52,062 nt of DNA from IMG/VR virus record IMGVR_UViG_2531839330_000009; one strand, written 5' to 3'. The DNA is from a virus (lineage: Duplodnaviria > Heunggongvirae > Uroviricota > Caudoviricetes). Shown here piece after piece: positions 1,369 to 40,903 of the stretch. Made by a program: the position numbers and the translations under genes. Every line of letters begins with the position of its first letter. Position 1 is the first letter of the stretch. The notes below the pieces were generated by a model that was not told the origin of the DNA, searched no databases, and saw nothing but the letters and a program-made list of their open reading frames with translations.

Positions 1369-1444
1369 GCCGATATAGCTCAGTTGGTAGAGCAGCGCAT
1401 TCGTAATGCGAAGGTCGTAGGTTCGACTCCTATTATCGGCACCA
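1369..1444 (+). tRNA. thrW: tRNA-Thr (anticodon CGU)
   Basis: 76-nt cloverleaf GCCGATATAGCTCAGTTGG...GGTTCGACTCC...CACCA; anticodon loop TTCGTAA; lies directly after proA. Confidence 0.9.
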
Positions 1445-1445
1445 T
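1399..1445. repeat. attL core: 47-bp direct repeat covering the 3' half of thrW
   Basis: Identical 47 bp ATTCGTAATGCGAAGGTCGTAGGTTCGACTCCTATTATCGGCACCAT recurs at 40857-40903. Confidence 0.8.
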
Positions 1446-1458
1446 TAAAATCAATAAG

Positions 1459-2622
1459 TTACACATCATTAGTACCTTCCTTATTTTTTAACTGGGACAA
1501 ATTTGGGACCGATGGGTTCAGGATCGAGTCTATTTGCCGTGCGTGTTCGGTAAGGTGATTAGGTGCAAGGTGAGCATATCGACGAACCATTTCGATAGAC
1601 TCCCAGCCTCCCATTTCCTGTAACACTGACAACGGGACTCCGGCTTGAACCAGCCAACTTGCCCAGGTGTGTCTCAAGTCGTGAAATCTGAAATCATCAA
1701 TACCAGCCCGTCTCAGCGCCGCTTTCCAGGCTGTGTTTGCGTCATACCGCATCTTCCTTACTGTTGGCGCTTTCGTTCCGTCTGGTTTGGTACAGCTTTC
1801 CTTGTACACAAATACCCAACGGTGATGATTCCCGATTTGTTTTTTCAAAACGCGACATGCAGTATCATTCAGCGCAACGCCAATTGCGCGGTTTGATTTA
1901 CTCTCTTCCGGGTTTATCCATGCCCCCCGGCGCTGCATGTCTATTTGTTGCCATTCAAGGTTGATGATGTTCGAGCGTCTTAAGCCTGTTGCCAGTGCAA
2001 ATTCAACAACAGACTTTAATGGCTCCGGACATTCATCAATCAGCCTTTGTGCTTCATGGGGCTCCAGCCAGCGGATCCGTTTATTCTTTGGTTGAGGCAC
2101 TTTAATAATTGGTGCCTTATCCAGCATTTTCCATTCACGCTCTGCGGCTCTTAGTAGGGCCTTTATAAATGAAAGATGCGTAGCCTTCGTTGCAACGGAC
2201 GCTGGTTTTGGCGTGTATTCTGGAACAGGTTTCCCTTTTTTTCTGCATGCTTCTGCCCTGAGTCTCCAGTTTTCCTCATGACGCCGGTTCGTCATTTTCT
2301 GCATTGCTGAATAAATTTTTGATTCAGTAATGTCTCTTAGTTGCATTCCTGCGAAATGTTGAAGCCAGAATCCGATCCGGCTTTTGTCATCGTCCAGTGA
2401 TTTTTTATGTGCTTTCTCTTCAAGCCACCTGACACACGCTTCCTCGAACGTTATATCAGGTATTTCACCAAGTTTGCTGACCCGCCATGCTTCAGCCTTT
2501 AGCTTGTCATGGAGTTCTGTCGCCTGCCTTTTGTCCTTTGTTCCAAGAGACTGTTTAAATCTTTTACCGTTCGGCAATGTGAAACTGGCGTACCATATTT
2601 CACCTCTGCGGAAGAGTGACAT
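1459..2622 (-). CDS. int: tyrosine integrase (P22 Int-like)
   Basis: 387 aa, MSLFRRGE...; C-terminal HDLRHTWAS...RY catalytic motifs; adjacent to tRNA att site. Confidence 0.9.
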
Positions 2623-12679: not shown

Positions 12680-12697
12680 TTTTTTCGGAGAAAGTTG

Positions 12698-13084
12698 ATG
12701 CGTAATATACAGATGATCCTTGAACGTTGGGGGGCATGGGCAGCGAGTGATAGCTCAGGAGTTGACTATTCGTCTATAGCTGCTGGGTTTAAGGGGCTTC
12801 TTCCATATACCAGAAAGACACGTCTAGCTTGTTCAGATAGTGATGCATTAATTATTGAAGGTAGCCTTGCTCTTCTTAAGAAGAGAAAACCGTACGAACA
12901 TTCTTTGATTGTGGCTCATTACCTGTATGGCATCTCGAAAAGAAAGATCGCAAAGGCACGTAATAAAGACGAAAAATTGATACGTATCGAGATACAGGTT
13001 GCTGAAGGTTTTATCGATGGCTGCCTAAGTATGCTGGATGTGAAACTTGAAATGGATGACTACTCTGAGTCTCCTGTAGCATGA
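12698..13084 (+). CDS. late-gene antiterminator Q (QuuD/phage 21-type)
   Basis: ATG at 12698 with GGAG RBS; MRNIQMILERWGAWAA... resembles DLP12 QuuD from memory; precedes lysis genes. Confidence 0.8.
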   Translation: MRNIQMILERWGAWAASDSSGVDYSSIAAGFKGLLPYTRKTRLACSDSDALIIEGSLALLKKRKPYEHSLIVAHYLYGISKRKIAKARNKDEKLIRIEIQVAEGFIDGCLSMLDVKLEMDDYSESPVA

Positions 13085-13695
13085 AATAATGAAACGACCA
13101 TATGTCTTACATAATATGGTTGATTTGTAGCTGGATGCAATGTTGTACTCATGAATCGCAAGGGATTATCCTCGTCGGTTGTAATTTTTGCATCAGCTAC
13201 TTCCTGCTGAAGATGCTTTCGCCAGTCATCAAGTCTCTCGCCAGATTTCTTAATTTTACAGTAAATGATAATGCCACCATGGTTGTCACGCGCAGTGCCT
13301 GTGCCATATCGCTCGTTGAGCTGGTTCCATCCACCTAAGATGTACGCAGGACCTTTCCATAATTTAGCTTCGCCAATCCATGCAAATCGGCCGAGCTGAT
13401 GTTTAACTAATATATCTATATGCCCTCCATGCTGAGTGTCATGTTCAGCGTCATAATTACGGCCTTTCAAAAAAGCAATAATAACTGATGTGAGCTCATC
13501 TTCACCCCCCTGCTGTGTTTGATACATATGTTTTTGGGTTTCCAAAACATACATCGCGTCATCAAGGTCAACGTAAAGTTGCTTCACGAAATCGTCGTGA
13601 CTTGCTGCAAATTTTCGCTTAAGAAAACCAGACAATTCAGGGTCAAATTGACTTAAGGTGTCTAATTGGGCAAGGTTGAAATTACATTCACTCAT
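13060..13695 (-). CDS. cassette gene C: putative PD-(D/E)xK nuclease-like protein (211 aa)
   Basis: ATG with GGAGG RBS; motif GGHIDILV-(14 aa)-IGEAKLW fits the D...(D/E)xK core; AT-rich; 3' end overlaps the Q 3' end by 25 bp. Confidence 0.5.
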   Translation of the reverse strand: MSECNFNLAQLDTLSQFDPELSGFLKRKFAASHDDFVKQLYVDLDDAMYVLETQKHMYQTQQGGEDELTSVIIAFLKGRNYDAEHDTQHGGHIDILVKHQLGRFAWIGEAKLWKGPAYILGGWNQLNERYGTGTARDNHGGIIIYCKIKKSGERLDDWRKHLQQEVADAKITTDEDNPLRFMSTTLHPATNQPYYVRHMVVSLFHATGDSE

Positions 13696-14110
13696 GTAAT
13701 TCCTCCAAAGCCTCAGTAGGAGTGAAGTATGGGAACAAATAATGATTATAATTATCGACTAATTGACCACTGTAAGGATGATAAAACTTACCTGTATGAA
13801 GCGCATGAGACACGTCATCATCATCGACGGGAATAGGATCACTATCGTCAGACTCGATATACTGGAAATGCATATCTAGCAAGTGCATTCTGTTGCTCGA
13901 AAGATAGTCAGTTACTTTGATCAGTAAAACTTTGGCATCGTTATTTTGCACATCAAGCTTAGTACCATTAACCAAACTTACATATGTTATGTGTTTCAGT
14001 GACTTAGCTTCTTTGCTGGTTAAAAAATCAACCACAACACGACATAAATCTCCAACCGGCCCATGTAGGTCGTGGTTGATTTTCGAGTATATGTCGTGTT
14101 TAGTTAACAT
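13688..14110 (-). CDS. cassette gene B: hypothetical acidic protein (140 aa)
   Basis: Internal ATG at 14110; overlaps gene C start by 8 nt (translational coupling); acidic tract SDDSDPIPVDDDD. Confidence 0.45.
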   Translation of the reverse strand: MLTKHDIYSKINHDLHGPVGDLCRVVVDFLTSKEAKSLKHITYVSLVNGTKLDVQNNDAKVLLIKVTDYLSSNRMHLLDMHFQYIESDDSDPIPVDDDDVSHALHTGKFYHPYSGQLVDNYNHYLFPYFTPTEALEELHE

Positions 14111-14120
14111 AATCAACTCT

Positions 14121-15218
14121 TTATGCAGCCTCGTCAGTGGCTCGCTTTCTCTGTATGCTTGATAGTGACTCTAACATCTTGTTGATTACAAACAAAATAT
14201 GCTCAATTGAGGAGCAACGATCTATGATTGCATCATAAAGGTGACTGTTCGGTTTATCAATCATAGCCCGTTTACCTGGCAGTATTAATTCTACAGGGAA
14301 AACTTGAGAAGCTGAATCAGTCAGATCCCAAATTTTACCGAGTTTGTATTTCGTTAGTATGGGACTTGCCTCTTCGCCCCCATGATGGTAGCTGTCTGAG
14401 CGCAAGCAGCTTTCACCCGGACGGAGTTTTAATGAGCTGGTGTTTCCATCTGATGTAAGAAATGACATCTGCGAGATTCTACCATCTGTTTGCTCGTACA
14501 TTTCTTGTACTAATCCAAAGAGGTCAATGGGCGCAGGTAAAGTCAAACCAGTAGTAGTTCTAATAAACTGATCAAGCAAAAATTGCTGTCGTTCCGACTC
14601 TGAACGAGGCATCACAGATAAATCAACAGTGAGCGCAAGTAAATGCAACTCGGGTAGAATCATTATTGTATTAAAGCACTGTGTAACTTCACGTGTTTTA
14701 CATTTGATTTCACCACCATTGGAGCGAAGAGCTAGCCCAGCATCGCTTAAATGGGTCGCGTCGAGTTCAATAGTTTCTGTGTAGTATGCTTTCGACGTAA
14801 GAATCGTTGTTTCTAAAGAAACTTTGTTTACGACAGAAAATGTAGTTTCTAAAAAATGAAGATCTGTATCAGCTGCAAGCAACACATCTTTAGGCAAAGG
14901 ATATGGATAGCTTTCGCAAAAAACGGATTCGTCTCTTTCTAGGGCATTTATATTCTCCCGTAGAGTTTGCACTTCTTCCGGTTCTAACTTATACAGCTTA
15001 ACTAAACGGGTCCCACTCAATAGTAAATTTTGCCATACTTCACCTATATGAGTACTTACAGCTTCCTGATCTACATCTTCTGTTGCTTGGAGCCTCGCGA
15101 TAAATGGGTCAAGGCCAACTGATGTGACACCAAGTGGTTCCCCCACAATTTTTTTTGTGAGCTTCCATCCAACACGTTCGGTGATATCTCTTAAAAGGTT
15201 GATCGTTTGCTCATTCAT
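14121..15218 (-). CDS. cassette gene A: hypothetical protein (365 aa)
   Basis: Internal ATG at 15218 (track ORF begins at a TTG further upstream); no recognisable motif; AT-rich; first gene of the 3-gene minus-strand operon. Confidence 0.45.
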   Translation of the reverse strand: MNEQTINLLRDITERVGWKLTKKIVGEPLGVTSVGLDPFIARLQATEDVDQEAVSTHIGEVWQNLLLSGTRLVKLYKLEPEEVQTLRENINALERDESVFCESYPYPLPKDVLLAADTDLHFLETTFSVVNKVSLETTILTSKAYYTETIELDATHLSDAGLALRSNGGEIKCKTREVTQCFNTIMILPELHLLALTVDLSVMPRSESERQQFLLDQFIRTTTGLTLPAPIDLFGLVQEMYEQTDGRISQMSFLTSDGNTSSLKLRPGESCLRSDSYHHGGEEASPILTKYKLGKIWDLTDSASQVFPVELILPGKRAMIDKPNSHLYDAIIDRCSSIEHILFVINKMLESLSSIQRKRATDEAA

Positions 15219-15364
15219 AAGAAACCCTTTTTTGTATTTTTTTGTACTTTTTGAAGGCAATTTAGATAGTCCTTAACATACTAAATTAACGAACATATTT
15301 CATTAGCACGGTCCGCAAAAAGTGATGTATCATGTTAAGAGTGGTTACTTCGCCACACAACTTA

Positions 15365-16832: not shown

Positions 16833-17126
16833 TTATTGTGAGCAATACACCCGCGCTTCCAGCGGAGTATAAATGCCTAAAGTAATAAAACCGAGCAATC
16901 CATTTACGAATGTTTGCTGGGTTTCTGTTTTAACCACATTTTCTGCGCCGCCACAAATTTTGGCTGCATCAACAGTTTTCTCCTGTCCAATTCCCGAAAC
17001 GAAGAAATGATGGGTGATGGTTTCCTTTGGTGTTACTGCTGTCGGTTTGTTTCCAACAGTAAACGTCTGTTGAGCACATCCTGTAATAAGCATTGCCAGA
17101 GCGGCAGAAAACAACATTTTTTTCAT
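16833..17126 (-). CDS. bor: Bor lipoprotein (serum-resistance factor)
   Basis: 97 aa from internal ATG (MKKMLF...ITGCAQQ lipobox); near-identical to lambda Bor from memory. Confidence 0.85.
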   Translation of the reverse strand: MKKMLFSAALAMLITGCAQQTFTVGNKPTAVTPKETITHHFFVSGIGQEKTVDAAKICGGAENVVKTETQQTFVNGLLGFITLGIYTPLEARVYCSQ

Positions 17127-17306
17127 CTTATTATCCTGCATTGTTAAAAACGGCAGAATCCTATGTGACAACAATTAAACGATAGTTAAATGGATTGATG
17201 AAAATTAAAACTATATAGGTGTACGGTCAGACTATTGGAGGTAGTCAGGATTTGAATGTCAGTCTGTTGTCGGCATTCTGGCAATGCAATTTGGATAAAG
17301 CGGGGA

Positions 17307-18127: not shown

Positions 18128-18622
18128 ATGGCTGGAACGGCGGGGCGTTCCGGGCGTCGCCCCAAGCCAACGGCGCGCAAGGCGCTGGCCGGAAACCCCG
18201 GCAAGCGAGCCCTGAACAAAGATGAACCTGTTTTTACGCCCATCAAAGGTGTTGAGCCACCGGAGTGGTTCGCAGAAGAAGATCTCCCTCTCGCCACGAT
18301 CATGTGGCAACTGACAACCAAAGAACTCTGCGGTCAGGGCCTGCTGTGCGTGACTGACCTGGCGGTACTTGAGCGGTGGTGCGTGGCCTATGAGTTCTGG
18401 CGACGTGCCGTGAAAAATATTGCCAGCCAGGGCAACACCATCACCGGTGCAATGGGCGGCAGGGTCAAAAACCCGGAGCTGACCGCCAAGAAAGAACAGG
18501 AGTCCGAGATGAGCAGCACGGGGGCAATGCTCGGACTCGACCCCAGCAGCCGCCAGCGTCTGATAGGCCTGGCGGGGCAGAAGAAAGCCACTAACCCGTT
18601 TCTGAAAATCATCGAATCATGA
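18128..18622 (+). CDS. terminase small subunit
   Basis: ATG at 18128 with AGGAG RBS; basic N-terminus; precedes terL with overlapping stop/start. Confidence 0.7.
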
Positions 18623-20352
18623 GCCGGAAATCTTACCCCAACGTAAATGCTGCCAATCAGTATGCCCGTGATGTCGTGCGGGGAAAGATTGTGGCCTGCC
18701 AGTTTGTGATTCAGGCCTGCCAGCGCCATCTTGATGACCTGATGGCGGAAAAAAGTAAGTCGTTTCGTTACCGCTTCGACAAGGACCTGGCTGAACGGGC
18801 CGCCAAATTTATTCAGCTGTTGCCGCACACCAAGGGTGAGTGGGCATTTAAGAGGATGCCCATCACGCTGGAGCCGTGGCAGCTCTTTGTGATCTGCTGC
18901 GCGTTTGGCTGGGTCAATAAAGGCTCCCGGCTGCGCCGCTTCCGTGAGGTGTATACCGAAATCCCCCGTAAGAACGGCAAATCGGCAATCTCTGCCGGTG
19001 TCGCCCTGTATTGTTTTGCCTGTGATAACGAGTTTGGCGCGGAAGTGTATTCCGGTGCCACGACAGAGAAACAGGCGTGGGAAGTCTTTCGCCCGGCGCG
19101 ACTGATGTGTAAACGCACACCCATGCTGACGGAAGCGTTCGGGATTGAGGTTAACGCCTCAAACATGAACCGTCCGGAGGATGGCGCGCGGTTTGAACCG
19201 CTGATCGGTAACCCCGGTGATGGATCATCACCCCACTGTGCGGTGGTGGATGAATATCACGAGCACGCCACCGATGCGCTTTACACCACGATGCTTACCG
19301 GGATGGGGGCGCGACGTCAGCCACTGATGTGGGCCATTACTACTGCCGGGTACAACATTGAGGGGCCGTGCTACGACAAACGGCGGGAAGTTATCGAGAT
19401 GCTCAACGGTTCGGTACCCAACGATGAACTGTTCGGGATCATCTATACCGTTGACGAAGGTGACGACTGGACCAACCCACAGGTGCTGGAAAAAGCCAAC
19501 CCGAATATCGGGGTGTCGGTTTACCGTGAGTTTTTGTTAAGTCAGCAACAGCGTGCGAAAAATAACGCCCGTCTGGCAAACGTCTTTAAAACAAAACACC
19601 TCAATATCTGGGTGTCGGCGCGTTCGGCGTATTTCAACCTGGTGAGCTGGCAGAGCTGCGAGGATAAATCACTGACTCTTGAGCAATTCGAGGGGCAGCC
19701 GTGCATTCTGGCCTTTGACCTGGCGCGTAAACTGGATATGAACAGCATGGCGCGACTTTATACCCGCGAGATTGACGGTAAAACGCATTACTACAGTGTG
19801 GCTCCGCGCTTCTGGGTACCGTATGACACGGTGTACAGCGTCGAGAAAAATGAAGATCGCCGGACAGCCGAACGCTTTCAGAAATGGGTGGAAATGGGCG
19901 TTCTGACCGTTACCGATGGTGCGGAAGTGGATTATCGCTACATCCTCGAGGAGGCCAAAGCGGCGAACAAAATCAGCCCGGTCAGTGAGTCACCCATCGA
20001 CCCCTTCGGGGCGACCGGGTTGTCACATGACCTTGCTGATGAAGACCTGAATCCCGTCACTATCATTCAGAACTACACCAACATGTCCGACCCGATGAAA
20101 GAGCTGGAAGCGGCAATTGAATCGGGGCGCTTTCATCATGATGGCAATCCCATCATGACCTGGTGTATCGGCAATGTGGTCGGCAAAACCATTCCGGGTA
20201 ACGATGATGTGGTGAAACCCGTCAAAGAGCAGGCGGAAAACAAAATTGACGGTGCAGTTGCGCTGATTATGGCGGTTGGCAGAGCCATGCTGTACGAGAA
20301 AGAAGACACGCTGTCTGACCACATTGAGTCCTATGGGATCCGCTCGCTTTAA
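18619..20352 (+). CDS. terminase large subunit
   Basis: 577 aa; ATPase and nuclease regions (e.g. VVDEYHEH); canonical position. Confidence 0.9.
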
Positions 20353-20363
20353 CTGAGGTAATT

Positions 20364-20546
20364 ATGATCATGCTGATTCTCGCGCCTCTGGTGGGCGTGC
20401 TGGGGGCGCTTTTGCTGGCGTATGGTGCCTGGCTGATTTATCCCCCGGCGGGGTTTGTTGTTGCCGGGGCGTTGTGCCTGTTCTGGTCGTGGCTGGTGGC
20501 GCGATATCTCGACCGTACACAGTCGTCTGTCGGCGGAGGTAAATAG
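20364..20546 (+). CDS. small membrane protein, hypothetical
   Basis: 60 aa, two hydrophobic helices, GAGGT RBS; between terL and portal. Confidence 0.35.
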
Positions 20547-21787
20547 TGTTCTTTTCGGGATTATTTCAACGAAAAAGTGACGCACCGGTGACCACGCCAG
20601 CAGAGCTGGCGGATGCTATCGGGTTGTCCTACGACACCTATACCGGAAAGCAGATCAGCAGCCAGCGGGCCATGCGACTGACGGCGGTTTTTTCCTGCGT
20701 CAGGGTGCTGGCAGAGTCGGTCGGGATGTTGCCCTGCAATCTGTATCACCTGAACGGCAGCCTGAAACAGAGAGCCACCGGCGAGCGTCTGCATAAGCTG
20801 ATCTCCACGCATCCCAATGGCTATATGACGCCGCAGGAGTTCTGGGAGCTGGTGGTCACCTGTCTGTGCCTGCGGGGAAACTTTTACGCCTACAAAGTGA
20901 AAGCATTTGGCGAAGTGGCTGAACTGCTGCCCGTCGATCCCGGCTGTGTGGTACCGAAGCTTAACAGTAGCTGGGAGCCGGTCTATCAGGTCACATTCCC
21001 GGACGGCTCCACGGATGTACTGAGCCAGGAAGATATCTGGCATGTGCGCACGCTGACGCTGGACGGTCTGGTGGGGCTGAATCCCATCGCCTATGCCCGC
21101 GAGGCAATATCGCTGGCAGCTGCGACCGAAGAGCACGGGGCCAGACTGTTCAGCAATGGTGCGGTGACGTCCGGTGTGTTGCGTACATAGCAGACGCTGT
21201 CGGATCAGGCTTATGAGCGCCTGAAGAAAGATTTTGAGGAGCGTCACACCGGGCTTGGCAATGCTCACCGCCCGATGATCCTTGAGATGGGGCTGGACTG
21301 GAAGTCGATGGCGCTGAACGCCGAGGACAGCCAGTTCCTGGAAACCCGCAAGTTTCAGCTTGAAGAAATCTGTCGTCTGTTCCGGGTGCCGTTGCACATG
21401 GTGCAGAACACCGATCGCGCCACCTTCAACAATATCGAAGAGCTGGGGCTGGGATTTATCAACTATTCACTGGTGCCGTATCTGACCCGCATCGAACAGC
21501 GGATCAACACCGGACTGGTACGAAAAAGTAAGCAGGGCGTTTATTACGCCAAATTTAACGCCGGGGCGTTACTGCGCGGGGATATGAAGTCCCGTTTTGA
21601 AGCCTACGCCACCGGGATCAACTGGGGAATTTACTCTCCCAATGACTGCCGCGACCTGGAAGATATGAATCCGCGTCCCGGTGGTGATGTCTATCTCACA
21701 CCGATGAACATGACCACGAAACCCTCCGATGGCAGTAAAGCCGGTAAGCAGAAGGATAACGCCAATGCAGACGAAACAACGTCTTGA
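20546..21787 (+). pseudogene. portal protein (HK97 family) interrupted by a single in-frame TAG at 21188-21190 (or amber-suppressed)
   Basis: Track ORFs 20546-21190 and 21275-21787 share one frame; hand translation of 21191-21274 has no further stop; GTG start with GGAGG RBS. Confidence 0.65.
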
Positions 21788-22415
21788 TGTACCGCTGAGT
21801 CTGAAATCTGTCAGTGACTCCGGTGAGTTTGAAGGGTATGGCTCCGTCTTTGGTGTAAAGGACAGCCACGATGATGTGGTGATGTCCGGGGCATTTGCTG
21901 CTTCCCTGCGGGCGTGGAGTGACAGAAAAGCGTTACCTGCGCTGCTCTGGCAGCACCGCATGGATGAACCCATCGGTGTTTACACCGAAATGAAGGAAGA
22001 CGATGTCGGGCTTTACGTCAGGGGACGGTTGCTTATTGATGATGATCCCCTCGCAAAACGCGCACATGCACACATGAAGGCCGGTTCGTTAACCGGCCTT
22101 TCTATTGGGTACGTCCTGAAAGACTGGGAATACGACCGGAGCAAAGAAGCCTTTCTGCTGAAAGAAATCGACCTCTGGGAAGTCAGCCTGGTGACGTTCC
22201 CGTCTAACGACGAGGCGCGGATCAGCGACGTCAAGAACGCACTGGCCCGCGGGGAAATCCCCGAACAGAAAAAAATCGAAAGAGTCCTGCGTGATGTCGG
22301 ACTCTCCCGTACCCAGGCCAAAGCATTCATGGCCGGGGGCTATGGCGCACTGTCCCTGCGCGACGCTGAGGATGTGGGCTCTGCACTGAATGCACTGAAA
22401 AATCTGAACTTCTAA
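21765..22415 (+). CDS. prohead maturation protease (HK97 family)
   Basis: Internal ATG with AAGGA RBS overlapping portal end; portal-protease-capsid order. Confidence 0.7.
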   Translation: MQTKQRLDVPLSLKSVSDSGEFEGYGSVFGVKDSHDDVVMSGAFAASLRAWSDRKALPALLWQHRMDEPIGVYTEMKEDDVGLYVRGRLLIDDDPLAKRAHAHMKAGSLTGLSIGYVLKDWEYDRSKEAFLLKEIDLWEVSLVTFPSNDEARISDVKNALARGEIPEQKKIERVLRDVGLSRTQAKAFMAGGYGALSLRDAEDVGSALNALKNLNF

Positions 22416-22429
22416 TCAGGAGAAATACG

Positions 22430-23635
22430 ATGGCGGTTGATATTAAAGATGTCGAACAGGTCGCGCAGGAGCTGCAGCAGAAGTTTGACGACTTCAAAGC
22501 AAAGAACGACAAGCGCGTGGATGCGATTGAGCAGGAAAAAGGCAAGCTTGCCGGGCAGGTGGAAACCCTGAACGGGAAACTCAGCGAGCTGGAAAATCTC
22601 AAAAGCGACCTTGAAAAAGAGCTGCTTGAGCTGAAACGTCCGGCAGGTGGAGCGCAAAATAAACTGGCCACCGAGCATAAAGAGGCGTTTGTGGGCTTCC
22701 TGCGTAAAGGCCGTGAAGACGGTCTGCGCGATCTGGAGCGTAAGGCATTGCAGGTGGGTACCGATGAAGACGGTGGCTACGCCGTGCCGGAAGAACTGGA
22801 TCGCAACATTCTTAACCTGCTGAAAGATGAAGTGGTGATGCGTCAGGAAGCCACGGTGATCACCGTTGGCGGTTCCGACTACAAAAAACTGGTGAATCTG
22901 GGCGGTACGGCTTCCGGATGGGTGGGGGAAACGGATACGCGATCCCAGACTGCCACCTCCAGACTGGAGCTGATTGAACCTCTCATGGGGGAAATCTACG
23001 GCAACCCGCAGGCTACCCAGAAAATGCTGGACGATGCCTTCTTCAACGTGGAGGCCTGGATCAACAGCGAGCTGGCAACCGAATTTGCCGAACAGGAAGA
23101 AATTGCCTTTACCTCAGGCAATGGCACCAAGAAGCCGAAAGGGTTCCTGGCGTATGAATCCACGGATGAAACCGACAAGGTCCGGGCGTTCGGCAAACTT
23201 CAGCATATTGTATCCGGCGAAGCGACCGCGGTGACCGCAGACGCCATTATCAAACTGATTTACACGCTGCGTAAGGCACACCGCACTGGCGCGAAGTTCA
23301 TGATGAACAACAACAGCCTGTTTGCCATACGTCTGCTGAAAGACACCGAGGGTAACTATCTGTGGCGTCCGGGGCTGGAACTGGGGCAGCCGTCCTCTCT
23401 GGCGGGTTACGGTATCGCTGAAAACGAACAGATGCCGGATATCGCCGCTGATGCGAAAGCCATTGCATTTGGTAACTTCAAACGGGGTTACACCATCGTT
23501 GACCGTATCGGCACCCGCATTCTGCGTGACCCGTACACCAATAAACCGTTTGTCGGTTTTTATACCACCAAGCGCACCGGCGGGATGCTGGTCGATTCGC
23601 AGGCCATCAAACTGCTGAAGATTGCAGCGGCGTAA
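22430..23635 (+). CDS. major capsid protein (HK97 fold, with N-terminal delta/scaffold domain)
   Basis: 401 aa; coiled-coil N-terminus then capsid domain; AGGAG RBS. Confidence 0.85.
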   Translation: MAVDIKDVEQVAQELQQKFDDFKAKNDKRVDAIEQEKGKLAGQVETLNGKLSELENLKSDLEKELLELKRPAGGAQNKLATEHKEAFVGFLRKGREDGLRDLERKALQVGTDEDGGYAVPEELDRNILNLLKDEVVMRQEATVITVGGSDYKKLVNLGGTASGWVGETDTRSQTATSRLELIEPLMGEIYGNPQATQKMLDDAFFNVEAWINSELATEFAEQEEIAFTSGNGTKKPKGFLAYESTDETDKVRAFGKLQHIVSGEATAVTADAIIKLIYTLRKAHRTGAKFMMNNNSLFAIRLLKDTEGNYLWRPGLELGQPSSLAGYGIAENEQMPDIAADAKAIAFGNFKRGYTIVDRIGTRILRDPYTNKPFVGFYTTKRTGGMLVDSQAIKLLKIAAA

Positions 23636-23684: not shown

Positions 23685-23885
23685 ATGATCCTGAAACAAG
23701 ATCTGAAATGGTCACCGGACGGTATGCGTGTTGAGGTCATTCGGGCCGGTGAGTATGACGACGGGGCGCTTCCTGCCCGGGTGCAGGAGATTGCACTTCA
23801 GGCCGGGTTAGCAGAGCGCGGAATCAGTGCAAAAAGCAGTAAAGCGGCAAAAGAGAAAAAAGCCACGACCAGTAAAGAGGGCTGA
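23685..23885 (+). CDS. hypothetical small head protein
   Basis: 66-aa ORF between capsid and connector genes. Confidence 0.3.
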   Translation: MILKQDLKWSPDGMRVEVIRAGEYDDGALPARVQEIALQAGLAERGISAKSSKAAKEKKATTSKEG

Positions 23886-23887
23886 GT

Positions 23888-24211
23888 ATGCTTCTGACAA
23901 TGGAAGAGATTAAAGCCCAACTCCGGCTGGATGAGGATTTCGATGCTGATGACCGCCATCTGCAACTGCTGGCCTGTGCGGCACAAAAGCGGACGGAAAC
24001 GTATCTGAACCGGAAGCTCTATGCACCGGATGAAACCATTCCGGACAGCGATCCGGACGGGCTGCACCTGCCGGATGATATTCGTCTGGGGATGCTGATG
24101 CTTATCAGCCATTTTTACGAAAACCGCTCGTCGGTTACGGAAGTGGAGAAACTCGACATGCCGCAGAGTTTTGGCTGGCTTGTCGGCCCGTACAGGTACT
24201 TTCCGCAATGA
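23888..24211 (+). CDS. head-tail connector (gp6-like adaptor)
   Basis: 107 aa; position and size. Confidence 0.45.
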   Translation: MLLTMEEIKAQLRLDEDFDADDRHLQLLACAAQKRTETYLNRKLYAPDETIPDSDPDGLHLPDDIRLGMLMLISHFYENRSSVTEVEKLDMPQSFGWLVGPYRYFPQ

Positions 24212-24618
24212 AAATTCGTCAGGCGCAGACCAGCGCAACCTACATTCTGCCGGACCCCGGTGAACTGAATAAACGCGTCCTGATCCGCCAGCGGGTGGAT
24301 ATGCCCGCGGATAACTTTGGCGTGGAGCCTCAATACCCGGTTACGTTCCGGACATGGGCGAAGGTTATCCAGACCAGTGCCACCACCTGGCAGGAAACCG
24401 CGCAGACCGGGGACGCCATCACCCATTACATCACCATTCGTTACCGCCGGGGGATCACTGCTGATTATGAGGTGGTCTGTGATGACAGTGTGTACCGGGT
24501 GAAACGTCAGCGTGATCTGAACGGGGCGCGGCGCTTTCTGCTGCTGGAGTGTACGGAGCTGGGCGAATGTAGGCAGAGTCACGGAGGCAGCAATGGCGAC
24601 TCCCTTTTTTCACGTTGA
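24208..24618 (+). CDS. head closure / head-tail joining protein
   Basis: 136 aa; ATGA-coupled to upstream gene. Confidence 0.45.
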   Translation: MKIRQAQTSATYILPDPGELNKRVLIRQRVDMPADNFGVEPQYPVTFRTWAKVIQTSATTWQETAQTGDAITHYITIRYRRGITADYEVVCDDSVYRVKRQRDLNGARRFLLLECTELGECRQSHGGSNGDSLFSR

Positions 24619-25099
24619 TGTTCAGCAGCCCGCCGAGATGCGCTTTAACCGCGCCCGTGTCCGGAGGGCGTTTGTCACGATTGGGCAGCGTCATATGCGT
24701 GATGCCCGTCGGCTGGTGATGCGCCGTGCGCGGTCGGCACCGGGTGAAAACCCCGGTTATCAGACCGGACGCCTGGCTCGTTCGATTGGTTATATGGTGC
24801 CGAGAGCCAGTAAAAAGCGAGCCGGTTTTATGACACGCATTGCCCCTAACCAGCGCAACGGGAAGGGGAACCGGATGATCTCTGGTGACTTCTATCCGGC
24901 GTTTCTGTTTTTTGGTGTCCGGGGAGGAGCAAAACGTCGTCGTAGTCATCATCGTGGTGCATCCGGTGGCAGCGGCTGGCGACTGGCTCCACGTAATAAC
25001 TTCATGGTGGAAACTCTTGAAAAGAACCGCAGCTGGACACGCTATTTTCTGGCGCGGGAATTGCGTAAATCACTGAAGCCGGAGAGACGACACAGATGA
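24593..25099 (+). CDS. neck/tail-completion protein (HK97 gp10-like)
   Basis: 168 aa; position in head-tail joining block. Confidence 0.4.
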   Translation: MATPFFHVDVQQPAEMRFNRARVRRAFVTIGQRHMRDARRLVMRRARSAPGENPGYQTGRLARSIGYMVPRASKKRAGFMTRIAPNQRNGKGNRMISGDFYPAFLFFGVRGGAKRRRSHHRGASGGSGWRLAPRNNFMVETLEKNRSWTRYFLARELRKSLKPERRHR

Positions 25100-25656
25100 A
25101 ACTGACGCCTGTTATTGCTGCGCTGCGTGCCCGCTGCCCGTATTTTGAAAACCGGGTGGCAGGCGCGGCACAGTTCAAAAATCTGCCGGAGGTCGGAAAG
25201 CTGAGACTCCCGGCGGCGTATGTGGTACCGGGTGATGACTCTCCGGGAGAAAACAAAAGCCAGACCGACTACTGGCAGGAGCTGAAAGAGGGCTTCTCCG
25301 TGGTTGTCATACTGAGTAACGGGCGTGATGAGCGCGGTCAGTTTGCCTCGTATGATGTGGTGGACGATGTCCGGCAGATGCTCTTTAAGGCCCTGCTGGG
25401 CTGGAACCCGGAAGCGTGCGGTAACCCGATTACCTATGACGGCGGCACGCTGCTGGATCTGAATCGTCATGAGCTGATTTATCAGTTCGATTTTTCGGTC
25501 ATCAGCGAGCTGACTGAAGACGATACCCGCCAGCAGGATGATCTGAACAGTCTGGATGAACTGCAAACGCTGGCGATTGATGTTGATTATCTCGAGCCCG
25601 GTAACGGGCCTGACGGCGATATCGAACATCACACCGAAATAACCCTTCCTTCCTGA
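25096..25656 (+). CDS. tail-associated hypothetical protein
   Basis: 186 aa; ATGA overlap with upstream gene. Confidence 0.35.
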   Translation: MKLTPVIAALRARCPYFENRVAGAAQFKNLPEVGKLRLPAAYVVPGDDSPGENKSQTDYWQELKEGFSVVVILSNGRDERGQFASYDVVDDVRQMLFKALLGWNPEACGNPITYDGGTLLDLNRHELIYQFDFSVISELTEDDTRQQDDLNSLDELQTLAIDVDYLEPGNGPDGDIEHHTEITLPS

Positions 25657-25664
25657 GAATCTTC

Positions 25665-25835
25665 ATGTTTGTGAAACCTGTTAAAGGGCGGTCAGTGCCT
25701 GACCCTGCCCGCGGTGACCTTTTGCCCGTCGAAGGGCGAAATGTTGACGAGAACAACTACTGGCTGCGCCGTGAAGCAGCGGGTGATATCCGGCGCGTGA
25801 ATAAAAAGGTGAACACCGATGACGATAAGCTTTAA
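25665..25835 (+). CDS. small protein preceding tail sheath (DUF2635-like)
   Basis: Hand-translated 56-aa ORF MFVKPVKGRSVPDPARGDLLPVEGRNVDENNYWLRREAAG..., overlaps sheath start. Confidence 0.35.
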   Translation: MFVKPVKGRSVPDPARGDLLPVEGRNVDENNYWLRREAAGDIRRVNKKVNTDDDKL

Positions 25836-27315
25836 CACCATTCCGTCGAATACGCTGGTTCCGCTGTTTTATGCGGAAATGGATAACCAGGCGGCGAATA
25901 CTGCACAGGACAGCGGAGCATCGCTGCTGATTGGTCATGCCAATAACGGTGCAGAGATTGTTGCCAACAGTCTGGTACTGATGTCGTCGGCAGACTATGC
26001 ACGCCAGATTTGTGGTGCGGGAAGTCAGCTGGCGCGTATGGTCGAGGCTTATCGCCAGACTGACCCGTTTGGCGAGCTGTATGTGATTGCCGTTCCTGAA
26101 TCCACAGGCGCGGCGGCAACGGTTACGCTGACGGTGACCGGGGCGGCAACCGAAACCGGCACGGTGAATGTGTATGTGGGACGTACCCGCGTGCAGGCAC
26201 CGGTGACTAACGGCGATAACGTCACGATGATTGCCAGCAGTATCCAGGATGCCATCAATGCCGTTCCGACCCTGCCGTTTACGGCTTCATCTTCGGCAGG
26301 CGTGGTCACACTGACCGCGCGTCATAAGGGGCTTTGCGGGAATGAAATTCCTGTCAGCCTCAATTACTACGGCTTTGGTGGGGGCGAAGTGCTGCCAGCG
26401 GGCGTACAGATTGCCGTGGCGACGGGTACCGCCGGAACGGGTGCTCCGGTTCTCACCGGCGCGGTGGCTGCAATGGCGGATGAGCCGTTTGATTATATCG
26501 GCCTGCCGTTCAACGACACGGCCTCCGTTAACACGCTGGTGACCGAGATGAACGATACCAGCGGTCGCTGGAGCTATGCGCGTCAGCTGTACGGTCATGT
26601 GTATACGGCAAAGATCGGCACGCTGTCAGAACTGGTGACCGCTGGTGACCAGTTTAACCAGCAGCACATTACCCTGGCGGGGTACGAAAAAGAGACCCAG
26701 ACGCCTGCCGACGAGCTGGCGGCAAGCCGTACCGCCCGCGCAGCGGTGTTTATCCGCAACGATCCGGCACGTCCCACGCAGACCGGTGAGCTGGTGGGTA
26801 TGCTGCCTGCGCCGAAGGGGAAACGGTTCACGATGACCGAGCAGCAGACCCTGTTGTCTCATGGCGTGGCAACGGCGTATGTCGAAAGCGGGGTGCTGCG
26901 CATTCAGCGTGATGTCACCACGTACAGGAAAAATTCTTACGGGGTTGCGGATAACAGCTACCTCGACAGCGAGACGCTGCATACCAGTGCGTATGTACTG
27001 CGCAAACTGAAATCCGTCATTACCAGTAAGTACGGGCGTCACAAGCTTGCCAGCGACGGTACCCGCTTTGGTCCCGGTCAGGCGATTGTCACCCCGGCGG
27101 TAATCAAAGGGGAACTGCTGGCAACCTACCGTCAGCTTGAGCGTGCGGGGATCGTGGAAAACTACGAACTGTTTAAGCAGTACCTGGTTGTGGAGCGTGA
27201 TGCCAGCGATCCGAACCGCCTGAACACGCTGTTCCCGCCTGACTATGTTAACCAGTTGCGTGTTTTTGCCGTGGTTAACCAGTTCCGTCTTCAGTATTCA
27301 GAGGAGTCTGCATAA
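25819..27315 (+). CDS. contractile tail sheath protein
   Basis: 498 aa; precedes tube/chaperone/tape-measure genes. Confidence 0.8.
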   Translation: MTISFNTIPSNTLVPLFYAEMDNQAANTAQDSGASLLIGHANNGAEIVANSLVLMSSADYARQICGAGSQLARMVEAYRQTDPFGELYVIAVPESTGAAATVTLTVTGAATETGTVNVYVGRTRVQAPVTNGDNVTMIASSIQDAINAVPTLPFTASSSAGVVTLTARHKGLCGNEIPVSLNYYGFGGGEVLPAGVQIAVATGTAGTGAPVLTGAVAAMADEPFDYIGLPFNDTASVNTLVTEMNDTSGRWSYARQLYGHVYTAKIGTLSELVTAGDQFNQQHITLAGYEKETQTPADELAASRTARAAVFIRNDPARPTQTGELVGMLPAPKGKRFTMTEQQTLLSHGVATAYVESGVLRIQRDVTTYRKNSYGVADNSYLDSETLHTSAYVLRKLKSVITSKYGRHKLASDGTRFGPGQAIVTPAVIKGELLATYRQLERAGIVENYELFKQYLVVERDASDPNRLNTLFPPDYVNQLRVFAVVNQFRLQYSEESA

Positions 27316-27671
27316 TGGCCCGTATCGGGGGAACCTGTTATTTCAAAATTGACGGTCAGCAGCTATCGCTGACCGGCGGCATTGAGGTGCCCATGAACAG
27401 GACGGTCAATGATGACATCATCGGCCTGGACGGTTCAGTGGACCGCAAGGAAACTCACCGTGCGCCTTATGTCAAAGGGACCTTCAAGGTGCCGAAGAAT
27501 TTTCCGGTGAGCAAAATCACCTCGTCTGATGAGATGACCATCACTGCTGAGCTGGCGAACGGTCAGGTCTATGTATTGTCGTCAGCCTGGCTGCACGGCG
27601 AAGCGAACCATAATGCCGAAGAAGGCACGGTTGATCTTGAGTTCCACGGTGAAGAAGGGGATTACCAGTAA
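27315..27671 (+). CDS. tail tube protein
   Basis: 118 aa; ATGx overlap with sheath. Confidence 0.65.
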   Translation: MARIGGTCYFKIDGQQLSLTGGIEVPMNRTVNDDIIGLDGSVDRKETHRAPYVKGTFKVPKNFPVSKITSSDEMTITAELANGQVYVLSSAWLHGEANHNAEEGTVDLEFHGEEGDYQ

Positions 27672-27940
27672 TGAAAGAGCTTGAGTTAAAGAAACCGATT
27701 ACCGCTCATGGCGAGACACTCTCCGTACTGGAGTTTGATGAGCCCACCGGGAAAGATGTCCGCGAGCTGGGGTATCCCTACCAGATGAATCAGGATGAGT
27801 CCGTCAGACTTCTGGCGCATGTTGTATCGAAATACATTGTGCGGCTGGCGAAAGTGCCGCAAAGCTCTGTCGACCAGATGTCTCCGGCAGACCTGAATGC
27901 AGCGGCGTGGCTTGTGGCTGGGTTTTTCCTCCAGGCCTGA
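27671..27940 (+). CDS. tail assembly chaperone
   Basis: 89 aa directly upstream of tape measure. Confidence 0.55.
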   Translation: MKELELKKPITAHGETLSVLEFDEPTGKDVRELGYPYQMNQDESVRLLAHVVSKYIVRLAKVPQSSVDQMSPADLNAAAWLVAGFFLQA

Positions 27941-28089
27941 CGGCTGAATACCTCACTGATCGCTTCTTTGACTGCGCCAGCTACTGGCGCATTAATCCCT
28001 TCGAATTGCTGAATATGCCGATCAGTGAAATTCCCTTGCTGGTCAGTCAGGCAAACAGGATAGAGCAGGAGAAACGCACACATGGCTGA
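27907..28089 (+). CDS. -1 frame extension of tail assembly chaperone (putative programmed frameshift product)
   Basis: ORF in -1 frame overlapping chaperone 3' end and tape-measure start; T-rich slip site GGGTTTTTC at 27920-27928. Confidence 0.35.
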   Translation: MACGWVFPPGLTAEYLTDRFFDCASYWRINPFELLNMPISEIPLLVSQANRIEQEKRTHG

Positions 28090-39041: not shown

Positions 39042-39623
39042 CTTTATCAATGACTTATCTCCCGACTTCCCGCCTTGCTTTTCCTAAACAGAACAATCGT
39101 AGAATATTCTTGAAGGGTTAGATCGTCACTGTTTTCTGTTCGATACTGTGACATTCAGCACTTGATTCGCTATGGATCTGACAGGAAGGTTTCGAGCGAA
39201 AATCTGCAGTTATTCAGTCGTTTTCTTATCGGTCACCATTATTCTTTTAGACATTGATCCTACAAAGCTGCCGCAAAGTTGGTGGTGGGAACTGAAGTTG
39301 CGTAGAGAAGGGGTCAATACCCGGGGGCAAACATGGGCTGGCAAAAGTGTAGCGGTATTAGGCGCAGCTATTTAGCCTAGTTATGTTTTATGAAAACTTG
39401 ATATCATATAAGTGTCTTACTTATTGGCTGTAAATAAGTTTTTCCTAAGGAATTGTTTCTTGAGTATCATTTGTAACTGTAACGGAATTTATAATCCTTT
39501 GCTTTATTGTTACGGTATTTTTTATCACACCCTATTTTTAGTGGTTTTTTATACTGAAGTTTGGCAAAGTGAACTTTATATACATATACTTCATCCTGGT
39601 TTCAGTTAAATTGGGTGGATGAT

Positions 39624-40367
39624 ATGGCAACTACATGTTCAGTTATATTGATTTTGGAGTCCTTTGATGTTTATTTCGGAAAAGAGATTGTGTTTCTGGA
39701 GAGAGGTTCATCTGTACTTGTCGACTCTAGCTCTAGAGATTTTTTCCTGACATATCCTGAAAGAGTGATAGTGGCGGATTTTGGCGCTGAGTTTATTAGT
39801 CGCTATTTGAAAGCTAATAACTTAAGGGATATTTCTGATTGTAGGGAATATCCATCTTATTTAAAAATAAACTTTGCTGACTTCAGTTTAATTAAAGGAT
39901 TAATTAGTTGGGCTAATCACTGTGCTGAATACATAGAAATTTTTGATGAGTCTATTGCTTTTACATGTCTCTCTGCATTTTCTTCTGAAAAACAATTTGG
40001 AGTATTTCTGTTTGGATGTTTGAAAAGCACAGGGGCTAAAGTTAAAACGATTATTCATACGGATTTATCTGCACCATGGCGTCTTAAGGATATATCATCA
40101 AGATTATATCTCAGCGAAAGTTTACTAAAGAGGAAATTGAAAGAAGAGGGGGTATCATTCAGTAAGATCATACTTGATGAGAGGATGCAAATGGCTGAAT
40201 ATTTACTCAGCACTCGTTGTTATCCTATTAGTAAAGTAGCTAAGGTCTGTGGTTATGCCAGTGTCTCATACTTTACTTATGTATTTAGACGTTATTTTGG
40301 TGTTTCTCCAAGTCAATACTCTCAGAGGAGTTCAGAAAGTAAAATTCTTACTCACCAGGGAATCTGA
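39624..40367 (+). CDS. AraC-family transcriptional regulator (Rns/PerA-like virulence-regulator type)
   Basis: 247 aa; C-terminal dual HTH (…KVAKVCGYASVSYFTYVFRRYFGVSPSQY); very AT-rich. Confidence 0.7.
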   Translation: MATTCSVILILESFDVYFGKEIVFLERGSSVLVDSSSRDFFLTYPERVIVADFGAEFISRYLKANNLRDISDCREYPSYLKINFADFSLIKGLISWANHCAEYIEIFDESIAFTCLSAFSSEKQFGVFLFGCLKSTGAKVKTIIHTDLSAPWRLKDISSRLYLSESLLKRKLKEEGVSFSKIILDERMQMAEYLLSTRCYPISKVAKVCGYASVSYFTYVFRRYFGVSPSQYSQRSSESKILTHQGI

Positions 40368-40408: not shown

Positions 40409-40636
40409 TTAAGTTAACGTTACCCGCTGACGTCGATATTCTCGCAGAGAGCGATAACCCAACGCACTGTGCGGATGGTTTTCATTGTAATGTTCGATCG
40501 CCACTGCAAGATTATGCAATGCCGTTCTTACATTCGGTTTCGGCATGAACGCGATGTAGTCTTCCTTCATCGTTTTCACGAACCTTTCTGCCATTCCATT
40601 ACTCTGAGGACTGCTGATTGCCCATGAGGAGTACAA
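40409..40636 (-). pseudogene. IS3-family (IS2-like) transposase C-terminal remnant
   Basis: …[15 protein letters not shown]…[18 protein letters not shown] is the OrfB C-terminus; no upstream transposase body. Confidence 0.6.
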
Positions 40637-40856: not shown

Positions 40857-40903
40857 ATTCGTAATGCGAAGGTCGTAGGTTCGACTCCTATTATCGGCAC
40901 CAT
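40857..40903. repeat. attR: 47-bp direct repeat of thrW 3' end
   Basis: Identical to 1399-1445; identity breaks on both sides. Confidence 0.8.

What the first reader, a model, noticed from the sequence alone, without database searches (positions are those of the whole stretch)
20546..21787. Portal gene carries a single in-frame amber (TAG) codon
Track ORFs 20546-21190 and 21275-21787 are in the same frame, and my hand translation of the 84 nt between them shows no other stop. The HK97-type portal is therefore one 413-codon frame interrupted only by TAG at 21188-21190. Portal is essential, so the prophage is either defective at head assembly, depends on an amber-suppressor host, or this is a sequencing error. 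All other head and tail genes look intact.
Basis: seen in the sequence. Interest (0 to 1): 0.6.

Follow-up and report, generated by a model that had tools for sequence, protein, structure and literature searches.

The report
Nonsense mutation in prophage portal gene
A single G-to-T change has put a stop codon in the middle of the gene for the DNA-entry ring (portal) of an otherwise intact E. coli prophage, so the virus is most likely unable to make infectious particles: an ordinary early step in prophage decay, not a new biological system.

Summary
Window 20546-21787 is one 413-codon frame whose only internal stop is TAG at 21188-21190 (codon 215). Both halves match consecutive parts of the HK97-type portal models (PF04860, TIGR01537).

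The ancestral codon is GAG (Glu). The closest complete E. coli genomes differ from the 1242-nt gene by exactly this base (G to T at 21188). SfIV and ST64B have GAG. All 120 IMG/VR contigs fetched with the same flanks have GAG or GAA.

The TAG allele is absent from 5,426 complete E. coli genomes and from the GTDB representative, IMG/VR and JGI metagenome collections. It was found on only one draft E. coli contig, GCA_000356965.1, recorded in 3 samples. That contig is identical to the window over 20.6 kb, so it is probably the window's source.

The element is a 39.5-kb SfII/SfV/ST64B/e14-like myovirus prophage at thrW. Its other 23 late genes are intact. Its 17.5-kb late region differs from E. 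coli ECE218 by about six bases.

Best reading: a very recent, lineage-private nonsense mutation that makes the prophage defective but revertible by one base. A base-call error cannot be excluded without reads. Suppressor dependence cannot be tested here. Low interest; already known kind.

The parts
20546..21787 (+). HK97-family portal gene, now a pseudogene: 413 codons with one internal amber
   Evidence: one frame; PF04860 and TIGR01537 matches run on across the stop; 1 nt different from the intact WP_000466255.1 gene in E. coli HB-Coli0 and ECE218
21188..21190 (+). Amber codon TAG (codon 215). Ancestral codon GAG (Glu). The mutation is G to T at 21188.
   Evidence: L001, L002, L003 all GAG; 108 GAG and 12 GAA among 120 IMG/VR contigs; E or D in 28 homologues; Glu in the HK97 portal 8cez
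20546..21190 (+). N-terminal ORF, the predicted product: a 214-aa fragment covering the first half of the portal domain
   Evidence: TIGR01537 positions 3-179 of 343; 96.6 bits, below the 112-bit cut-off
21191..21274 (+). 28 in-frame sense codons after the stop, with no start codon; predicted not to be translated
21275..21787 (+). C-terminal ORF (170 aa) from the first in-frame ATG. No Shine-Dalgarno-like sequence precedes it, so it is probably not expressed.
   Evidence: TIGR01537 positions 211-343
18128..20352 (+). Small (18128-18622) and large (18619-20352) terminase subunits, intact
   Evidence: 0 nt differences from ECE218
20364..20546 (+). ymfR-like 60-aa membrane protein gene; its stop overlaps the portal GTG start by one base
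21765..22415 (+). HK97-family prohead protease (S78), intact; overlaps the portal 3' end by 23 nt
22430..23635 (+). Major capsid protein, intact
23685..35595 (+). Head-completion, contractile tail and baseplate genes (connector, head closure, terminator, sheath, tube, tape measure, baseplate J, YmfQ), all intact
35883..37349 (.). Invertible tail-fibre segment bounded by 26-nt inverted repeats. The serine invertase gene lies beside it, outside this range, at 37375-37965 (+).
12695..13084 (+). Q-family late antiterminator
   Evidence: (PF06530 on the identical contig)
1399..1445 (+). attL core: the 47-bp 3' end of tRNA-Thr(CGT) thrW (tRNA at 1369-1444). The integrase gene lies outside this range, at 1459-2622 (-).
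40857..40903 (+). attR core: an exact 47-bp direct repeat of attL. The prophage therefore spans 1399-40903.

Best explanation
The portal gene of a complete-looking 39.5-kb SfII/SfV/ST64B/e14-type myovirus prophage at thrW carries a recent, lineage-private nonsense mutation: G to T at 21188, turning Glu215 GAG into TAG.

Shown:
- The base change, its ancestral state and its rarity.
- The intactness of the rest of the late operon.

Inferred:
- RF1 ends translation at codon 215 and releases a 214-aa fragment that lacks the C-terminal half of the conserved portal domain.
- No in-frame restart site with a ribosome-binding sequence follows, so no portal ring forms.
- From established knowledge of HK97-like assembly (my own knowledge, not tested here), the capsid protein and protease can still form portal-less proheads and tails still assemble. 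Terminase has nowhere to dock, so no DNA is packaged and no tail can join.
- On induction the lysogen would therefore lyse without releasing infectious phage.

The defect could be reversed by one base: 8 of the 9 single-base changes of TAG give sense codons. The prophage keeps immunity and its accessory genes (iss/bor-like, PD-T4-3 defence gene).
For: - One internal stop in a 413-codon frame.
- Pfam and TIGR01537 matches are split across the stop.
- The gene is 1 nt from the intact gene in HB-Coli0 and in ECE218, and that base is 21188.
- GAG in SfIV and ST64B.
- 120 of 120 IMG/VR contigs have GAG or GAA.
- Column 215 is E or D in 28 homologues, and Glu in the HK97 portal.
- The allele is absent from complete E. 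coli genomes: the best match to a 60-mer around the stop is 59/60 in 359 records. It is also absent from GTDB representatives, IMG/VR and JGI metagenomes.
- The same TAG lies on NCBI contig AQAE01000049.1, recorded for 3 samples and identical to the window over 20,645 nt.
- The late region has no indels and only about 6 substitutions in 17.5 kb against ECE218. Four are synonymous, one is a private change of ECE218, and one is the amber. This looks like real divergence in a clean assembly.
- No internal stop was found in any other real gene when compared with relatives.
- No suppressor tRNA lies in the window.
- No Shine-Dalgarno-preceded restart follows the stop.
- Precedent in the same phage family: ST64B is inactivated by a single frameshift in a tail gene (PMC5322425), and K-12 e14 retains only the first 408 nt of this portal gene.
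Against: - The source is a draft assembly and no reads could be inspected, so a consensus base error cannot be excluded.
- I could not identify the '3 samples' or show that they were sequenced independently.
- The functional consequences are inferred and not tested.
- The host's tRNA genes lie outside the window.
- The base after the stop is C, which is not the strongest termination context (+4U is strongest; PMC5289835). Some readthrough is therefore conceivable, and a virion needs only 12 portal subunits.
- Domain-level mapping of the truncation failed: the AlphaFold model had pLDDT 35.
Confidence: 0.77

Rival explanations
1. Sequencing or assembly artefact: the true base at 21188 is G and the portal is intact.
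For: - The window matches a 2013-era draft WGS contig.
- The allele is unique among thousands of related sequences.
- Nine public contigs from unrelated assemblies end within nt 641-644 of this gene, at the same codon. This could hint at a locally awkward site for short-read assembly.
Against: - It is a substitution at a non-homopolymer site.
- The surrounding 18 kb has no indels and only a handful of mostly synonymous differences from relatives, so the assembly looks accurate.
- The contig is recorded in 3 samples.
- The contig-end coincidence is at least partly a bias of looking up an exact 214-aa product.
- Real lineage substitutions in this region (about 3 expected) outnumber expected consensus errors by roughly an order of magnitude (inference).
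Confidence: 0.13
2. The amber is real but the phage still works. Either the host carries an amber-suppressor tRNA (for example a glnV, tyrT or serU anticodon mutant), or basal readthrough of UAG-C by near-cognate tRNA-Gln supplies enough portal.
For: - TAG is the suppressible class of stop.
- The +4 base is C, not the strong-termination U (PMC5289835).
- Only 12 portal copies are needed per virion (established knowledge).
- Position 215 varies between E and D, and aligns with Ala in the more distant solved portal 9lbn, so a substituted residue might be tolerated.
Against: - No suppressor tRNA in the window; the only tRNA is Thr-CGT.
- Strong amber suppressors are uncommon in wild E. coli (own knowledge).
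- Classical amber mutants in phage portal genes behave as tight conditional lethals in sup0 hosts (own knowledge).
- The allele is private to one lineage, with no sign of spread as a phage.
Confidence: 0.05
3. The knock-out is selected domestication. Losing the portal stops virion production while the host keeps immunity, the iss/bor-like gene, the PD-T4-3 defence gene and possibly free contractile tails that could act like a tailocin.
For: - Tail, lysis and accessory genes are all intact.
- The PD-T4-3 homologue is full length at E 3e-140.
- Relatives show independent decay of the same gene: e14 beeE, and various broken portals on other contigs.
Against: - A single private SNP with essentially no later divergence gives no signal of selection.
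- The allele has not spread.
- Several of the other broken portals lie in assemblies with many fragmented genes and may be long-read errors.
- Neutral decay explains the data equally well.
Confidence: 0.04
4. The two ORFs are genuinely separate genes (a naturally split portal), or the stop is a programmed recoding site.
For: None beyond the existence of two ORFs.
Against: - All close and distant homologues are single uninterrupted genes with a Glu or Asp codon at this site.
- The C-terminal ORF would lack residues 215-243 and has no ribosome-binding site.
Confidence: 0.01

Closest known systems
Intact portal WP_000466255.1 of E. coli prophages (e.g. strains HB-Coli0, ECE218)
   Same: 1241 of 1242 nt identical; same start, end and neighbours (ymfR upstream, S78 protease downstream)
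   Different: GAG (Glu) at codon 215 instead of TAG
Shigella serotype-converting phages SfII, SfIV, SfI and SfV, and Salmonella phage ST64B
   Same: - Same thrW/proA integration site and att core.
- Portal gene 97.7-98.6% identical for SfII, SfIV, SfI and ST64B.
- Tail genes 97.4-97.6% identical for SfII, SfI, SfV and SfIV.
- Same morphogenetic gene order.
- ST64B is a documented case of inactivation by one small mutation in a structural gene (PMC5322425).
   Different: - No gtr genes; a PD-T4-3 GIY-YIG gene and an AraC-family gene sit next to attR instead.
- The lesion here is a nonsense codon in the portal, not a frameshift in a tail gene.
E. coli K-12 cryptic prophage e14 (beeE/jayE)
   Same: Same portal gene lineage (first 408 nt 97% identical), ymfR upstream, and a Pin-type invertible fibre module
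   Different: e14 has lost most head and tail genes through a deletion that fuses the portal fragment to baseplate J. Here everything except one base is intact, so this is the earliest possible stage of the same decay.
Bacteriophage HK97 portal gp3 (PDB 8cez, 8fql)
   Same: Clear homologue: E 8.7e-52 over residues 27-385; Glu conserved at the aligned position. Same family model TIGR01537.
   Different: More distant in sequence than the E. coli and Shigella homologues. HK97 is a siphovirus, whereas this prophage has a contractile Mu/e14-like tail.
Laboratory amber (conditional-lethal) mutants in phage head genes
   Same: A TAG in an essential morphogenetic gene, one base from a sense codon
   Different: Found in a natural-isolate draft genome. 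No evidence of a suppressor host or of deliberate construction.

Membership tests
HK97-family phage portal protein (TIGR01537 / Pfam PF04860) | Full-length match to the family model above the curated cut-off | tested here: met
   The intact 99%-identical homologue P0032 scores 264 bits against a cut-off of 112, over model positions 3-343. In the window the match is split: the N fragment scores 96.6 bits (below cut-off) and the C fragment 121.8 bits. So the gene belongs to the family, but neither predicted product is a complete member.
HK97-family phage portal protein (TIGR01537 / Pfam PF04860) | Sequence homology to an experimentally solved HK97-type portal | tested here: met
   8cez (HK97 portal) E 8.7e-52; RcGTA portal 6te8 E 5e-20
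HK97-family phage portal protein (TIGR01537 / Pfam PF04860) | Gene order: terminase, portal, S78 prohead protease, HK97-fold capsid protein | tested here: met
   PF03354 and PF20441 TerL, PF04860, PF04586, PF05065 in consecutive genes
HK97-family phage portal protein (TIGR01537 / Pfam PF04860) | Portal fold and dodecameric ring | tested here: inconclusive
   AlphaFold2 on a 28-sequence alignment gave pLDDT 34.8 and was unusable. Oligomerisation cannot be tested with these tools.
thrW-integrating SfII/SfV/ST64B-like temperate myoviruses | Integration into the 3' end of tRNA-Thr (thrW) next to proA, with a duplicated att core | tested here: met
   tRNA-Thr(CGT) at 1369-1444; 47-bp exact repeat at 1399 and 40857; proA at 1-1254
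thrW-integrating SfII/SfV/ST64B-like temperate myoviruses | High nucleotide identity of the morphogenetic module | tested here: met
   Portal 97.7-98.6% identical to SfIV, SfII, SfI and ST64B; tail genes 97.4-97.6% identical to SfII, SfI, SfV and SfIV
Serotype-converting (gtr-carrying) Shigella phages | gtrA/gtrB/gtr(type) O-antigen glucosylation genes next to attR and int | tested here: not met
   The region between the invertase and attR encodes a PD-T4-3 GIY-YIG protein and an AraC-family regulator; the phage matches do not cover a gtr cluster
Programmed stop-codon readthrough / recoding site | The stop codon is conserved at the site among homologues | tested here: not met
   Glu or Asp codon in every homologue examined
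Suppressor-dependent amber mutant | Host or phage encodes an amber-suppressor tRNA | not testable with these tools
   No suppressor tRNA in the 52-kb window. The rest of the host genome is not available.
Defective (cryptic) prophage | An inactivating lesion in a gene essential for virion production | tested here: met
   Nonsense codon at 215 of 413 in the portal. The loss of infectivity itself is inferred, not tested.

The most novel reading that the evidence does not exclude
The amber is a real, maintained allele with a function. It would make virion production conditional, on a host suppressor tRNA or on stress-dependent UAG readthrough. Alternatively it would convert the prophage into a head-less producer of contractile tails plus a carrier of defence (PD-T4-3) and serum-resistance genes. 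Either way it would be the first step of tailocin-like domestication caught in the act.
Probability: 0.03. Interest if true: 0.5.

Novelty: already known. Interest (0 to 1): 0.1.

Why it matters
It matters mainly for annotation. The two ORFs should be merged and flagged as one portal pseudogene (internal stop), and the prophage should be scored as probably defective even though it looks complete. It is a clean example of the earliest stage of prophage decay: a single base change in an otherwise intact element. The same gene lineage shows the late stage in K-12 e14. It opens no new question. If the strain is available, it offers a natural, one-step-revertible portal-null lysogen for a well-studied phage family.

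Tried and rejected
- Exact 29-mer around the TAG: no hit in GTDB representative genomes, IMG/VR or JGI metagenomes.
- Exact look-up of the 214-aa product: nine of the ten places shown were wild-type contigs that simply end at that codon. Only one contig truly carries TAG.
- Look-up of the 170-aa C fragment: it returned other, unrelated portal disruptions (frameshifts and deletions). Several lie in assemblies with many fragmented genes, so they are not evidence of a hotspot.
- Literature search for the assembly accession: only irrelevant hits, so the strain name and sequencing platform remain unknown.
- Literature search for amber suppressors in natural E. coli isolates with prophages: no paper matched all four search terms.
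- AlphaFold2 model of the intact portal, to place residue 215 in the wing, stem, clip or crown: pLDDT 34.8, discarded. The HK97 and RcGTA portal papers give no residue boundaries in their text.
- Possibility that the T came from a co-resident phiP27-type portal allele: rejected. phiP27 has G at the aligned base and GAA at the codon.
- Split-gene and recoding readings: rejected from the homologues.

Full report
**Observation.** The sequence at 20546-21787 translates as one frame of 414 codons including the terminal TGA. It has a single internal stop, TAG at 21188-21190, which is codon 215. They are in the same frame, with 28 sense codons between the stop and the next ATG.

**Is it one gene?** Yes.
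- Pfam Phage_portal (PF04860) matches the N part over profile positions 2-165 and the part after the stop over 169-321 of 321.
- NCBIfam TIGR01537 (portal_HK97, an equivalog model) matches the N fragment at model positions 3-179 and the C ORF at 211-343. A 99%-identical uninterrupted homologue scores 264 bits against a cut-off of 112.
- The solved HK97 portal (8cez) matches the reconstructed protein at E 8.7e-52.
- The neighbouring genes are small and large terminase, a 60-aa YmfR-like protein, an S78 prohead protease and an HK97-fold capsid protein.

**Ancestral state.**
- 1,398 complete E. coli RefSeq records carry this gene, none at 100% identity. The best eleven differ by one base.
- For HB-Coli0 and ECE218 I verified that this base is 21188: T in the window, G in the relatives. 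The ancestral codon is therefore GAG (Glu).
- Shigella phage SfIV and Salmonella phage ST64B also have GAG.
- Of 120 IMG/VR contigs fetched with the same 15+11-nt flanks, 108 have GAG and 12 have GAA.
- In 28 homologues down to 72% identity the column is E (13) or D (15), flanked by invariant residues. HK97 gp3 also has Glu at the aligned position.

**How widespread is the TAG allele?**
- A 29-mer spanning it is absent from the GTDB species-representative genomes, from IMG/VR and from the JGI metagenomes.
- A 60-mer centred on it matches 359 complete E. coli records. None is 60/60; the best is 59/60.
- Exact look-up of the 214-aa product found one real carrier: NCBI draft contig AQAE01000049.1 of assembly GCA_000356965.1, 74.4 kb, listed as present in 3 samples. 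It has the same 214-aa and 170-aa split.
- That contig is identical to window 10546-31190 over all 20,645 bases fetched. Its coordinates place the window at bases 22338-74399 of the 74,400-base contig, so the window almost certainly comes from it.
- The other places returned for the 214-aa sequence are wild-type contigs that happen to end at nt 641-644 of the gene.

**Context.**
- The element is a prophage of about 39.5 kb. It is bounded by an exact 47-bp direct repeat, at 1399-1445 (the 3' end of tRNA-Thr(CGT), thrW) and at 40857-40903. proA lies to the left, and a tyrosine integrase is at 1459-2622.
- It belongs to the SfII/SfIV/SfI/SfV/ST64B group of temperate myoviruses. The portal gene is 97.7-98.6% identical to SfII, SfIV, SfI and ST64B. 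The tail genes are 97.4-97.6% identical to SfII, SfI, SfV and SfIV. The early region matches SfII, SfIV and SfV at 95-96%.
- Its fibre module is e14-like. An invertible segment is bounded by 26-nt inverted repeats, with a serine invertase beside it.
- From small terminase to YmfQ (17.5 kb, 24 genes) the window differs from E. coli ECE218 by about six substitutions and no indels. Four are synonymous. One is a private change of ECE218 (capsid L90; every other relative has F, as the window does). One is the amber.
- A tblastn screen of ORFs from two relatives against the window found no other real gene with an internal stop.
- The amber is therefore the only window-specific coding change in the late operon. 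It must be very recent, if it is real.

**Mechanism.** The base change and its consequences for the reading frame are shown. The rest is inferred.
- RF1 should terminate at codon 215 and release a fragment with only the first half of the portal domain.
- None of the twelve in-frame start codons downstream has more than a 3-nt Shine-Dalgarno-like match, and ten have none. The C-terminal half, which holds the densest run of invariant residues, should therefore not be made.
- From established knowledge of HK97-type assembly (my own knowledge, not tested here), capsid protein and protease can still assemble portal-less proheads, and tails assemble independently. Without a portal there is no terminase docking, no DNA packaging and no tail joining.
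- Polarity on the downstream protease and capsid genes is probably limited. The late operon is read by a Q-antiterminated polymerase (PF06530 gene at 12695-13084), and the protease has its own AAGGA ribosome-binding sequence.
- The predicted phenotype is a lysogen that is immune and can lyse on induction, but releases no infectious particles.
- Eight of the nine possible single-base changes of TAG restore a sense codon, so revertants should be easy to obtain.

**Rivals.**
- *Consensus base error.* This cannot be excluded without reads. It is disfavoured by the type of change (a substitution at a non-repetitive site), by the otherwise clean agreement with relatives, and by the contig's presence in three samples.
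- *Suppressor dependence or leaky readthrough.* This cannot be tested. The only tRNA in the window is thrW. The base after the stop is C rather than the strong-termination U (PMC5289835), so a low level of Gln insertion by near-cognate tRNA is conceivable. I know of nothing that makes it sufficient.
- *Selected domestication.* The accessory cargo invites this reading: an iss/bor-like lipoprotein and a full-length PD-T4-3 defence gene. One private SNP carries no signal of selection.
- *Naturally split gene or programmed recoding.* Both are refuted by the homologues.

**Comparison with what is known.** Inactivation of prophages by single small mutations is well documented, and in this same family. 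ST64B is defective in S. Typhimurium because of one frameshift in a tail gene (Figueroa-Bossi and Bossi 2004, as summarised in PMC5322425). The K-12 cryptic prophage e14 retains only the first 408 nt of this very portal gene, fused to a baseplate gene. The window shows the same process at its first step. Nothing here lies outside known biology.

**Verdict.** Observation confirmed and interpretation supported. The feature is an ordinary nonsense pseudogene, or less likely a base-call error, in a well-known prophage type. Interest 0.1; already known.

Noticed in passing
window 38026-38850 (-) and 39615-40367 (+): A full-length homologue of the anti-phage defence protein PD-T4-3 (GIY-YIG; PADLOC E 2.8e-140; Pfam LEM-3_GIY-YIG) and an AraC-family regulator sit next to attR. 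The related Shigella phages carry their gtr serotype-conversion genes at this position.
   Followed up: partly
window 13060-15260 (-): Three co-oriented minus-strand ORFs (211, 142 and 379 aa) lie between the Q antiterminator and the holin. They have no Pfam match and only a weak PADLOC PDC-S54 hit (E 1e-5) on the 211-aa one. This may be an uncharacterised moron or defence cassette.
   Followed up: partly
window 35883-37349, with the invertase at 37375-37965: The invertible tail-fibre segment is bounded by 26-nt inverted repeats (96% complementary). It is in the opposite orientation to the otherwise 99.7-99.8% identical prophage of E. coli ECE218, so the Pin-type switch is or recently was active in this lineage.
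   Followed up: partly
portal nt 641-644 (window 21186-21189); loci L005-L013: Nine public contigs from unrelated NCBI, ENA and Logan assemblies end within 3 nt of the codon that is TAG here; the six whose final bases reach nt 643 show the wild-type G there, and three stop short of it or could not be confirmed. A Salmonella 214-aa 'partial' portal entry is recorded on 94 contigs. This is partly a bias of looking up an exact 214-aa product, but the reason for a common assembly break at this point is unexplained.
   Followed up: partly
window 16833-17174 (-): An iss/bor-like serum-survival lipoprotein gene lies just downstream of the lysis cassette. The homologue in E. coli EC01307 is annotated Iss.
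   Followed up: no
E. coli K-12 genomes (e.g. NZ_CP025268.1 1212833-1213239): The e14 pseudogene pair beeE/jayE is the first 408 nt of this same portal gene (97% identical) fused to a baseplate J gene. e14 is therefore a deletion derivative of a prophage of this type.
   Followed up: partly
loci L014, L018, L020, L022: Other assemblies carry this portal broken at different points (N fragments of 220-238 aa). L020 and L022 also have several neighbouring genes fragmented (terminase, protease, capsid), which suggests long-read indel errors rather than biology; in L018 only the large terminase looks shortened.
   Followed up: no
window 40409-40636 (-): An integrase-core (IS3-type transposase) fragment lies just inside attR. 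It is annotated as an incomplete pseudogene in the ECE218 relative.
   Followed up: no
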